Origin: Strigamia acuminata
Lineage: Eukaryota
Direction: 5' to 3'
DNA length: 64,000 nt
Assembly: GCA_949358305.1 (NCBI GenBank)
Contig: OX442314.1
Location: forward strand, 6,944,001-7,008,000
Below the pieces are notes generated by a model, which ran no database searches, was not told the DNA's origin, and saw only the letters and a list, made by a program, of their open reading frames with translations. Each line of letters begins with the position of its first letter. The stretch's first letter is position 1. Of this stretch, positions 53,624 to 57,211 are shown in pieces. A program made the position numbers and the translations under genes.

Positions 53624-56600
53624 TCAACGAACCATATCTTGATTCTGATACCAATTATAAGTTTTTAAAATGCAATCGTACAAAGAGAGAAGGGACATTC
53701 CCAAACCCAGTCCTGCAATGCTACCGAAATCGCTTAAGAATTGAGATATTGGATATGCTTGTTTCTCTTCTGCAATCTCTACAAAACTATCAGCAAATTG
53801 GAATAATAGTCTTGGAAAGGTATCTTCTGGCAATTTATTCTCCCGAAAAGTACTTTTGTAAAAAATATGTTCGCAAGGTTGTTTACATTTGCATTGTTTT
53901 TGATTCGAGTCAAGGTTGCTTAAATACGTGAAATGAGCGGTAGTTACGGCACTTGTAATGTTACAAACTGGCAAATTATTTTTTTCCATGTACGGTAATC
54001 TGAAACGAAGAGGAGATTGGTCAAAGATGTAAATGATATTCTAATTCCTTGAATTTTCTGTAAAGTCAACTAGTCAACATCGTCACAAGCAAATGAATCT
54101 TTAATCGCTCTCATGTCAAAACAAGCTCGCAAGTTTGTGTGTGGTTAATGCTAGTGCAATGACCCATTGCCAACTGATAACTGACCGCAGATTAGCTGAT
54201 CAGTCGATGTTCAGAACAACGAATAAATGTGATAAAATTGGAGCTAATATATGAAAAGAAATGTGAACTATACCTGCACTTAACACCTCGAAATACATTG
54301 TTATGCCAGCAAGCACTTTTACAGTTGAGATGAGCACTTTTGTTCTCTTCACATGGATCGCGCTTTGTATTTCTTCGTATGATCTATTTCGTAAAAGAAA
54401 TCTTAGTATGAGCATTTATTTCATTTATTTCATTTTCTACCTGAAACTCTCGAAGTACTACTTCGTTGACACACGCATAGTTTACGGTCAATGGTGCCAA
54501 AATGTTAACTTCCTCTTCCCGATTATTTATGAGTAGCTGCGTGTTATTATAATCCAAAACATTTATATTAATAATTAATACTGTATGTGCACAAAAAATA
54601 TATTTTCTATTTTTCTATTCACAACTAGGAATACATGTGTATCCGAACCAAACACGAATCATTTTTTTAGCATTTTTCAGCTTTGGATTATCCTAAGAAC
54701 TTTTTTTGCTTCTTTGTGCTTGAATAGACTTTCTCGTTATCTTATTTAAGAATGTTGCTTAAAAAGAGTCCGAGACTGCCAATTTAACACATTCCATTTT
54801 CAAAATGGAATGGTTGCAAAATTTCAGGTAATTTCGAGTGAAAATATTTTTTTACACACCTTTAGCTGCGGATCACAAGCTTCTGAAGGAGTTAGATATT
54901 CACTAAACCAAATGAAAAGTTTAGTGGTTTTTGTGCTTGTTTTATCTGCAAGACAGCGAAAAGGTCAGAATTAATTTTCAAATTCGTCGGAAGGAAAGGA
55001 ATTTTTACAGTTAAATAATTTTGGAAAAAAAAGAAAAATTGAAAAAGCTCAAAATTCAAAAGCAGACTTTTTGAATACAGCCATTAGTTAACTAAAATCA
55101 CAAATTAATGTTGTATATTACCATTCCTTATTTGTGAACAATTACCAAATGGAAGTGAAATAAGATTAGTTGTTGGTACCTGTAAACATAAAACTTTTAT
55201 TGTTTGGTTTTTGTTTGAGGAATAATGACTTAATATAGTTACATCATTGTCGTCATTGGTAATAAGCTTAGTAAACGTGTGGCCGATACTAATCGATTTC
55301 CAGATGTTTTGCAATGACAATTTGCTGTTGAACAATTGCCAGGGTGACATGTTGCCACAAGTTTTATTGGGTTGTTTGAGTAAGTGTAATCGGGCTTTGC
55401 GCATTTCTTCGTTTCTTTTTTCACCACAAACTGTGAAAGAAGGAAATTCGGTGTAGCGTCGTTGACTTATTCGAACGATTGTTGTCCCTGGTTCATCAAG
55501 GTAGTAATTGACACGAATGTGCAGGCAATACAAAGTAAATCCTGCAACAACTAATACGAATATTAACTTGCACTTTTGTAAAACTGTATATATTTTGGTT
55601 TGCTCATCAGTTTCATCGACCTTTTTTTTGCACATTTCATACAGACGCCTAATCTTATTGACGGATCTTTTTCGGTGAATGTTTGATGCAACATAATATA
55701 AATACCAAATGATGTCGGGTAATGAGATTACGGATAGTCCAAGAAACAGGCCCAGGTTTCCTCCTAAATCTGACAGTAAGGCAATAACGTCATATGAGTA
55801 CCGTTCTTCATAAACAGTGACTTTCTCATCAGTTATTGCTAATGATAAACTCATCGTTTTATTATTATTAGCTATGCCTAAATCAGTGTATGGTGTAAAA
55901 GTTATATGTTGACAAGGACGTTGACATCCACAATGAGCAATTGGTTCTGCAGATCTAACAAAGTTCCAAACACGAGAATTGTACATCAGATATGTATCAT
56001 TTGCTAATTTGCAAAGTGGCAAATCTAACTTCATGAACGGAAATCTTGTATAGAATATATTTAATTAGCTGTTTAATTGTGATACCAAACAAGAAGCATT
56101 TTCACCACATGTTCTTACCTGCATTTTAGTTTTTTAAATTTGTTAAGTAAGCAATTCCGATAGCATTCTCTGTATTCGTCTTCGTTAGAGCATGGACTGA
56201 TCGGTGAATTTTGCAATATGAACTACAATGGAAATCATTGAAATCAGCCCAGGAATTTCAAGTTTTTAGGTAAAACTTTACTTTGTTACAGCTAAAATTT
56301 ATTTTAATTGTTGAACCAGGATACATCAATGATACAAGAAAGTGATTTCCAACATTATTGAATGTCAGGTAAATCTAGGGCAAAAAGGGAAAAATTAATG
56401 TAACAATTGCTATTGTAATTTAATCAAGTTACCTGATAATAAGGCTTATTGCATATCGATTTGTATTTTTTTTTTAAATTTACTGTGAGTAACTTTCCGA
56501 CAAATGATTTGCTAGAAGCTTCAGCTGTGTCAATGAATAATTTTAGTGTAACAATGTAGGTAGTGAAAAATGCTTGTTTGTACTACTAGTAGTAGTTACC

Positions 56601-57211
56601 AAATCGAAATGCTGTGCATATTCCTAATCCACTGTCAGTTTCCGTCTGAACAACAGTTGTATTTGAATATCCCTATACAAATATAGTTTAAATTGTGAGT
56701 TTTAACTGAAGTTCTCTATTGTTTTTTTTTTATTTTTAGTTTTTACTTTCATTTTTACACTGTTAATGTCATCACTATTGTTAGTCGCTTTCCAAAGGGT
56801 ATCCATATCGTAAGTTGGGTTTTTGATTGTCATTAGTTCATTTATCATGTAACGGCATGAAATGGTTTCTGATCTTCGTTTATTTGCTGTAGGAGTTTCT
56901 TCCAAAAGCTTATTCATTTTCTTTGTATCTGAACTACAAACCATTAAGTCTGGTACAGCAACATTTTCTAATCTACTCGTTACGTCAACAGCGGTAGGAT
57001 AACTGAAGTAATGCATTACTCTATCGTATGTCTGATAAGTGAGCATGCATGTGCAAAAGAGAAGCAAAATGAGCCAAAGTGTATGACGTCTGCTCCAATG
57101 TTTTCTACTGTTTACAAAATCATCCAAACCAATTAAACTGCAGTTTGGTTTATTGGCATCTTCTTTCATCATAACTTGAATTGCAGAACGTAGTTTGCTT
57201 AATCTTAGCAT
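53624..57211 (-). CDS. DEG/ENaC (ASIC/pickpocket-family) channel with two complete subunit modules in tandem, ~784 aa (exons 57211-56747, 56672-56600, 56524-56433, 56374-56282, 56222-56119, 56044-55243, 55179-55122, 54945-54860, 54536-54441, 54383-54274, 53999-53624)
   Basis: Module 1: TM1 HTLWLILLLFCTCMLTYQ...YFSYPT, VPDLMVC, PC..C..C..CRFPF..C..CGCQRPC, YEERYSY..LLSDLGGNLGLFLGLSVISL. Module 2: TM1 LIFVLVVAGFTLYCL..YYLDEP, FPSFTVC, PC..C..C..CRLPY..C..CKCKQPC, EEKQAY..FLSDFGSIAGLGLGMSLLSL. All introns are GT-AG and the exon lengths sum to 2355 nt in frame. Confidence 0.88.

What the first reader, a model, noticed from the sequence alone, without database searches (positions are those of the whole stretch)
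53624..57211. A naturally concatenated two-subunit DEG/ENaC channel (four TM segments, two ectodomains, one polypeptide)
Seen in sequence: exon 56044-55243 runs without stop or intron from the thumb cysteines and TM2 of one subunit (LLSDLGGNLGLFLGLSV) through a ~40-aa basic linker into TM1 and the FPxxTVC motif of a second subunit, so the fusion cannot come from joining two neighbouring genes across an intron. Both modules have five introns at equivalent positions with phases 0,1,0,0,2, yet their sequences are very divergent, pointing to an old internal duplication. Established: DEG/ENaC/ASIC channels are trimers of two-TM subunits. Inference: a covalent dimer cannot make a simple homotrimer, so it would need a monomeric partner, leave one module outside the pore, cross-link trimers, or be cleaved. 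I know of no characterised natural example but cannot search.
Basis: partly seen in the sequence, partly recalled or inferred. Interest (0 to 1): 0.9.

Follow-up and report, generated by a model that had tools for sequence, protein, structure and literature searches.

The report
Two-in-one centipede ion channel subunit
A centipede gene joins two different subunits of a normally three-part ion channel in one reading frame, the same join recurs in about twenty predicted genes of a related centipede, and the pre-joined pair likely needs a third, separate subunit to complete its pore.

Summary

Gene: an 11-exon model (57211-53624, minus strand) gives a stop-free 784-aa protein with two DEG/ENaC modules. 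Intron phases 0,1,0,0,2 occur twice. TM2, the linker and the second TM1 lie in one exon.

Family: the genome is a centipede other than Strigamia maritima. Twenty S. maritima gene models carry a TM2-to-TM1 join. Divergent copies in DNA runs bridge it, and 21 of 40 listed variants are synonymous, none a stop. First and second modules form separate clades, so one old fusion expanded.

Structure: an AlphaFold model of a complete S. maritima relative folds as two whole subunits, nearest BRTNaC1 and PDPNaC1. Second modules differ systematically at pore positions.

Not shown: no RNA run was listed, so one mRNA and one protein are inferred. Assembly is untested; a 2+1 trimer is my best guess.

Print: ten literature searches found no natural concatenated DEG/ENaC. 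Separate three-module chains turned up in decapods, a midge and Strigamia.

The parts
56747..57211 (-). Exon 1: start codon, N-terminal helix, re-entrant-loop equivalent (SLIGL where ASIC5 has SFHGI), TM1 and start of ectodomain of module A
   Evidence: donor supported by alignment to S. maritima T1JEH2
56600..56672 (-). Exon 2 (module A ectodomain), predicted
56433..56524 (-). Exon 3 (module A ectodomain), predicted
56282..56374 (-). Exon 4 (module A ectodomain), predicted
56119..56222 (-). Exon 5 (module A, first thumb cysteines), predicted
55243..56044 (-). Exon 6, the junction exon: thumb and TM2 of module A, basic cytoplasmic linker, TM1 and FPxxTVC of module B
   Evidence: open frame in sequence; Pfam ASC two stretches; 47-57% identical to four S. 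maritima proteins across the join
55575..55690 (-). Linker (about 38 codons); resembles module A's own N-terminal helix and lacks the re-entrant-loop segment
   Evidence: alignments; variants 6 of 12 synonymous, no stop
55122..55179 (-). Exon 7 (module B), predicted
54860..54945 (-). Exon 8 (module B), predicted
54441..54536 (-). Exon 9 (module B), predicted; alternative donor at 54462
   Evidence: length matches S. maritima T1IYF0 and exon 4
54274..54383 (-). Exon 10 (module B, first thumb cysteines), predicted
53624..53999 (-). Exon 11: thumb, TM2 of module B (DFGSIAGLGLGMS) and stop; AATAAA at 53538
41747..47478 (-). 5'-truncated 99% copy of the gene's 3' part (from mid exon 6), with a 2053-bp inverted-repeat element inserted at 44181-46233 and a 7-nt deletion in the last exon; likely pseudogene
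60526..61266 (-). Last exon and 3' flank of an upstream paralog (87% DNA identity, intact to its stop); its other exons are not found in the window
41213..41471 (+). Fragment of a paralog's exon 1 (86% DNA identity), breaking off after TM1

Best explanation
This gene is predicted to make one four-helix polypeptide of two different DEG/ENaC subunits (A then B), which likely sit side by side in one cation pore and likely recruit a separately encoded single subunit to complete the trimer (2+1). Shown: the open junction exon, its conservation across paralogs and species, and position-specific pore residues. Predicted: the spliced 784-aa product, and the fold of both modules (in a relative). Inferred: one mRNA, an uncleaved linker, co-assembly of A and B in one pore, the third partner, and a sensory role like that of its nearest characterised relatives. 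The fusion would fix the A-B pairing and give an asymmetric pore across a large receptor family.
For: Join in one exon. Twenty named S. maritima models carry the join. Divergent DNA contigs bridge it with the same spacing, and 21 of 40 listed variants are synonymous against about 9 expected, none a stop. Separate A and B clades (95/92 and 92/83); a recent duplication within the focal subfamily is rejected (p-AU 0.00018). AF2 model of T1JD34: pLDDT 70.6, pTM 0.66; residues 423-788 align to BRTNaC1 (Z 19.6, rmsd 5.3, 333 aligned) and 51-381 to PDPNaC1 (Z 18.8, rmsd 4.4, 316 aligned). Module B keeps the gate Asp and the GAS-position Gly in 7 of 7, so it looks pore-lining; at the lower-gate position it has Ser or Asn in 6 of 7, where module A has Gly in 21 of 21. 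Single-module S. maritima proteins exist as candidate partners, e.g. T1IGW0. Engineered head-to-tail ASIC1a dimers and trimers conduct (PMC4529235 and PMC5449180, passages). The PDB holds human ENaC beta-gamma dimer and beta-beta-gamma trimer entries (titles only). Three-module chains exist in other arthropods.
Against: No transcript or protein evidence. The S. maritima proteins are automatic gene models, many of them partial or mis-joined. No partner subunit was identified in this genome, since no whole genome was held. The modelled protein is a distant relative, not the window's protein. Linker GT sites score as well as some real donors on a crude consensus count. Engineered ASIC1a concatemers showed lower-weight bands that the authors read as cleavage or incomplete synthesis (PMC4529235). 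Tree support is moderate, with long branches and no mixture model.
Confidence: 0.45

Rival explanations
1. The four-helix chains assemble only with each other. The third slot is filled by a module of another chain, so three chains make two linked trimers, or spare modules hang outside the pore and tie channels into clusters.
For: No monomer is required; engineered ASIC1a dimers gave currents alone in oocytes (PMC4529235). Linker spacings of 37-63 residues in the A-B family leave room. Two-module genes are very numerous.
Against: Position-specific conservation of both TM2 segments fits a defined pore role better than a dangling module. This is inference; nothing was tested directly.
Confidence: 0.27
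2. The gene is real but yields two ordinary subunits, by cleavage of the basic linker, alternative splicing or an internal start (Met413 lies in the linker). It would then work as a co-expression cassette.
For: The linker is basic and variable and resembles module B's former N-terminus. GT sites lie in the stretch. Concatemers can break down in cells.
Against: Module A has no stop of its own. The linker would be cytoplasmic, away from furin (established knowledge). No polyA-like hexamer lies between TM2 and the second TM1. The frame is kept across about twenty paralogs, and module B lacks the re-entrant-loop segment that module A carries.
Confidence: 0.13
3. Two A-B chains form a four-subunit pore, as two-pore and K2P channels do, which would be a non-trimeric DEG/ENaC.
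For: It resolves the symmetry mismatch simply. A cross-linking study argued for ASIC1a tetramers (PMC4529235, abstract and passages).
Against: The nearest solved relatives are trimers (three chains per entry for 9jf7 and 8ym*; PMC12714832 abstract). The tetramer claim conflicts with solved structures (established knowledge).
Confidence: 0.07
4. The fusion is an assembly error, or a decayed, untranscribed duplicate.
For: The neighbourhood holds broken copies. No single listed contig spans the stretch.
Against: The join is conserved in another species at 47-57% identity and in divergent paralogs, variants are skewed to synonymous, and the 784-codon model is intact.
Confidence: 0.04

Closest known systems
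PDPNaC1 (PDB 9JF7) and BRTNaC1 (PDB 8YMR/8YMW), Scolopendra antennal DEG/ENaCs (PMC12714832, PMC9974506)
   Same: Best sequence hits in the PDB for both thumb-TM2 regions and best structural matches for both modules of a relative. Small ectodomain. No canonical HG motif (stated for PDPNaC1). Non-canonical GAS (GIC in BRTNaC1).
   Different: They are single two-helix subunits of 421 and 431 aa that form homotrimers. Identity to the 421-aa protein taken as PDPNaC1 is only 17-20% per module. Their proton and heat gating cannot be transferred to this gene.
Strigamia maritima uncharacterised proteins T1JEH2, T1JGJ4, T1IYF0, T1JEG4 (close) and T1JD34, T1ITL7, T1IPM9, T1J963, T1JBK6 (distant)
   Same: Same TM2-linker-TM1 join and A-B order; 46-52% identity per module for the closest.
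   Different: Database gene models only, labelled 'Uncharacterized protein'; the closest ones are partial. No description found in print.
Vertebrate ENaC alpha-beta-gamma and other heterotrimeric DEG/ENaCs
   Same: Different subunits in one pore. A Ser at the lower-gate position in one subunit and Gly in the others is recalled for alpha versus beta/gamma ENaC and was not tested here.
   Different: Subunits are separate polypeptides.
Engineered ASIC1a concatemers (PMC4529235, PMC5449180)
   Same: Head-to-tail TM2-to-TM1 linkage that still conducts.
   Different: Artificial, identical repeats with full-length termini; here natural, divergent modules with a short linker.
Naturally concatenated channels of other families: K2P, two-pore channels, Nav/Cav (recalled)
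   Same: Internal repeats replace separate subunits and let positions specialise.
   Different: Their repeat number (2 or 4) divides the pore's four-fold symmetry; two does not divide three.

Membership tests
DEG/ENaC (Pfam ASC PF00858) | ASC profile match over TM1, ectodomain and TM2 | tested here: met
   Exon-level hits above the curated cut-off for the start and end of the modules; the spliced protein was not scanned
DEG/ENaC (Pfam ASC PF00858) | Post-TM1 FPxxTxC motif and cysteine-rich thumb | tested here: met
   VPDLMVC in module A, FPSFTVC in module B; thumb cysteines align in both halves
DEG/ENaC (Pfam ASC PF00858) | Subunit fold (palm, thumb, finger, two TM helices) | tested here: met
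   For the relative T1JD34 only: Z 19.6 and 18.8 to BRTNaC1 and PDPNaC1 for the two halves
DEG/ENaC (Pfam ASC PF00858) | One ectodomain and two TM helices per polypeptide | tested here: not met
   Two modules in one predicted frame; each module conforms, the chain does not
DEG/ENaC (Pfam ASC PF00858) | TM2 gate Asp, lower-gate Gly and G-x-S tract | tested here: inconclusive
   Module A has D, G and GLS; module B has D, Ser for the lower-gate Gly, and GMS. Functional BRTNaC1 also departs from GAS.
DEG/ENaC (Pfam ASC PF00858) | Pre-TM1 HG motif | tested here: not met
   IG in module A; segment absent in module B. PDPNaC1 also lacks it and conducts, so the motif is not required for function.
DEG/ENaC (Pfam ASC PF00858) | Trimeric assembly and cation current | not testable with these tools
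   Needs expression, electrophysiology or structure
BRTNaC1/PDPNaC1 orthologs | Grouping with them in a tree; conserved sensor residues | tested here: inconclusive
   The 421-aa protein taken as PDPNaC1 falls outside the A/B clades; Ser376 is Asn in A and Ile in B. BRTNaC1 was not knowingly in the tree.

The most novel reading that the evidence does not exclude
Soil centipedes have built a large receptor family from pre-joined A-B DEG/ENaC dimers that cannot match the pore's three-fold symmetry. They work either as an obligate 2+1 combinatorial system with a free third subunit or as self-cross-linking channel arrays. Arthropods have also evolved concatenated DEG/ENaCs several times independently, up to whole three-module single-chain channels in decapods.
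Probability: 0.55. Interest if true: 0.9.

Novelty: new variant of a known kind. Interest (0 to 1): 0.8.

Why it matters
All DEG/ENaC channels I found described are built from separate two-helix subunits. A natural, selected two-subunit chain does not fit a three-fold pore, so it forces a new assembly rule: fixed 2+1 heteromers, linked trimers, or a different subunit count. It gives a natural test of the stoichiometry question so far probed with artificial concatemers. It also flags a large, uncharacterised candidate sensory family in soil centipedes, and warns that long multi-ASC gene models in arthropods should not be dismissed as annotation fusions.

Tried and rejected
RNA: no RNA holder listed among 4 runs. 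The three runs that cover the stretch also cover the introns and show no splice-type joints, so they say nothing on expression. Summed contig depth is many-fold higher over exons than flanks; it hints at many copies but is not a copy number.

Tools not available: no whole genome held, so no partner search or copy count.

Models and trees: the AF2 model of the Penaeus three-module protein was too poor for a verdict (pLDDT 49.3, pTM 0.36). An 81-row mixture-model tree did not finish; FastTree on 67 rows and IQ-TREE LG+G4 on 31 rows were used instead. Modules under 240 aa, six redundant Strigamia rows and the distant taxa were left out of the 31-row tree.

Other blanks: ESM Atlas gave only single-module ASC clusters; it searches clusters of 50 or more only. 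A third module up- or downstream was sought by tblastn in the window and not found. P0030 was dropped from the join count as an overlap artefact. The earlier-findings index held nothing on this gene or architecture.

Literature: ten full-text searches and term look-ups in PMC5203786, PMC8438182, PMC10148893, PMC7067487, PMC7510291, PMC9822975 and PMC10507113 showed no natural concatenated DEG/ENaC. The Strigamia genome paper (PMC4244043) has no 'enac' in its main text (listing). Only 7 of its 57 supplements were searched, so an unseen supplement, the appendices of the centipede channel papers, or a subscription paper could mention it.

Full report
Observation. The minus strand from 57211 to 53624 supports an 11-exon model with GT..AG introns of 57-323 nt. 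It gives 784 codons without internal stop and a mass of 90.8 kDa. The phases are 0,1,0,0,2 in each half. Four intron pairs share an alignment column; the first pair shares its phase in a gappy region. Exon 6 (56044-55243) carries the thumb and TM2 of module A, a basic linker, and TM1 plus FPSFTVC of module B in one open frame. Pfam ASC hits the first, sixth and last exons. The halves are 21% identical (74 of 360). The model is predicted from DNA; its junctions agree with the S. maritima model T1JEH2 wherever that model has sequence. No RNA run was listed.

Organism. An ABCC10 exon in the window is 75% identical to S. maritima; the next-ranked hit is 33%. The window is therefore a centipede related to, but not, S. 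maritima.

Is the join real and selected? A phmmer search with the exon-6 product gave 333 hits at E<=0.001, of which 150 were listed. My own TM1 and TM2 profiles found a TM2-then-TM1 join in 28 of the 163 proteins then held, the window's model included. One is an overlap artefact, one is a midge protein and one resembles the decapod type, which leaves 24. Twenty of these are named S. maritima, one is an unnamed ENA record, and three were not looked up. T1JD34 (791 aa) and T1ITL7 (805 aa) are complete two-module models.

In DNA runs holding this stretch, contigs about 80-87% alike bridge TM2 to the second TM1. Two types do so with a diverged linker of the same length; other joints have unknown spacing. 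Of the 40 best-supported variants listed (189 more not shown), 21 are synonymous against 22.6% of possible changes, 6 of 12 in the linker against 19%, and none makes a stop. Each was read singly against the window's codon and transition bias was not modelled, so this is a rough sign of purifying selection. The window also holds a broken 99% copy and two paralog fragments.

History. In a 31-row IQ-TREE tree, first modules form one clade (10 rows, 95/92) and second modules another (9 rows, 92/83). The single-module T1IGW0 lies beside the second modules (94/78). Holding the focal subfamily's A and B together is rejected (p-AU 0.00018). Branches are long and the model has no mixture, so support is moderate. 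The linker aligns with module A's N-terminal helix but lacks the following re-entrant-loop segment. Exon 6 thus reads as the last exon of gene A joined to the first exon of gene B. I infer one old fusion of tandem paralogs followed by family expansion. Four other S. maritima models (T1IU28, T1IZL2, T1ITG7, T1IL99) belong to a different clade of closely similar modules, two of them with at least three modules; this looks like an independent concatenation.

Structure and pore. AlphaFold2 on T1JD34 with a 23-row alignment gave pLDDT 70.6 and pTM 0.66, with a low-confidence linker containing a helix; the Atlas's own model has pTM 0.53. Each half aligns to a whole solved subunit: BRTNaC1 Z 19.6 for 423-788 and PDPNaC1 Z 18.8 for 51-381. 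I could not inspect how the halves pack. At the PDPNaC1 lower-gate position (Gly375, equivalent to ASIC1 Gly436; PMC12714832, passages) module A has Gly in 21 of 21 sequences. Module B has Ser or Asn in 6 of 7. The next residue is Asn in 20 of 21 A modules and in 1 of 7 B modules. Both keep the gate Asp and the GAS-position Gly. B therefore looks like a specialised pore-lining subunit rather than a decayed one (inference).

Mechanism. The nearest characterised relatives are homotrimeric antennal heat and proton sensors of Scolopendra (PMC9974506, part 1 of 5 and passages; PMC12714832, part 1 of 9 and passages). Engineered head-to-tail ASIC1a dimers and trimers conduct, with some breakdown products (PMC4529235 and PMC5449180, passages). 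I put 0.45 on A and B filling two slots of a trimer completed by a free subunit, and 0.27 on dimer-only linked or dangling assemblies. Processing into two subunits gets 0.13, a four-subunit pore 0.07 and an artefact 0.04. A sensory role is inferred from relatives and family size only.

Wider pattern. The same search returned ~1000-1090 aa decapod proteins with three TM2-like segments and a shrunken middle ectodomain. They include Penaeus vannamei XP_069977668, whose cluster has five Logan members on contigs of 3.4-4.0 kb, and two Petrolisthes proteins. It also returned a 1460-aa three-module Polypedilum model and a two-module spider model. These group apart from the centipede family. The Logan contigs are barely longer than the coding sequence, which suggests but does not show single transcripts. 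The fold of the Penaeus protein gave no verdict.

Novelty. Ten searches and the look-ups listed under Tried and rejected found no description of a natural concatenated DEG/ENaC; coverage is open-access only. The related sequences have sat in UniProt as uncharacterised models. Each module is a DEG/ENaC; the chain architecture is a new variant.

Noticed in passing
P0092/P0156 (Penaeus vannamei XP_069977668), P0108/P0161 (Petrolisthes), P0059, P0062, P0075, P0118, P0130, P0131: Proteins of about 960-1090 aa with three DEG/ENaC TM2-like segments and a much reduced middle ectodomain, several on transcript-sized contigs: candidate natural single-chain trimeric channels. AF2 gave no verdict.
   Followed up: partly
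P0033 (Polypedilum vanderplanki KAG5672929) and P0061 (Oedothorax gibbosus KAG8189511): Three full ASC modules with short linkers in a midge, and two in a spider; they may be real or fused gene models.
   Followed up: no
P0009, P0010, P0012, P0018 (S. maritima T1IU28, T1IZL2, T1ITG7, T1IL99): A second, younger concatenated clade with up to at least three similar modules and shared linker sequences.
   Followed up: partly
window 44181-46233: 2053-bp element with short terminal inverted repeats inserted in the intron of the pseudogene copy; it holds a 503-codon acidic ORF with no Pfam hit.
   Followed up: partly
window 61725-61903 and 63441-63619: Perfect 179-bp direct repeats about 1.7 kb apart, just upstream of the paralog's last exon; possibly a young LTR-type insertion.
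   Followed up: no
window 14431-31590: ABCC10/MRP7-like exons on both strands, including a head-to-head pair at 21156-22058 (-) and 22354-23778 (+).
   Followed up: partly
window 7368-7891, 15864-17132, 24118-25102, 32971-33552, 37081-37635, 39173-40470, 49330-49761: Long minisatellite arrays that give spurious ORFs; 36066-38743 and 47476-50987 are about 85-96% similar copies of one repeat-bearing block.
   Followed up: no
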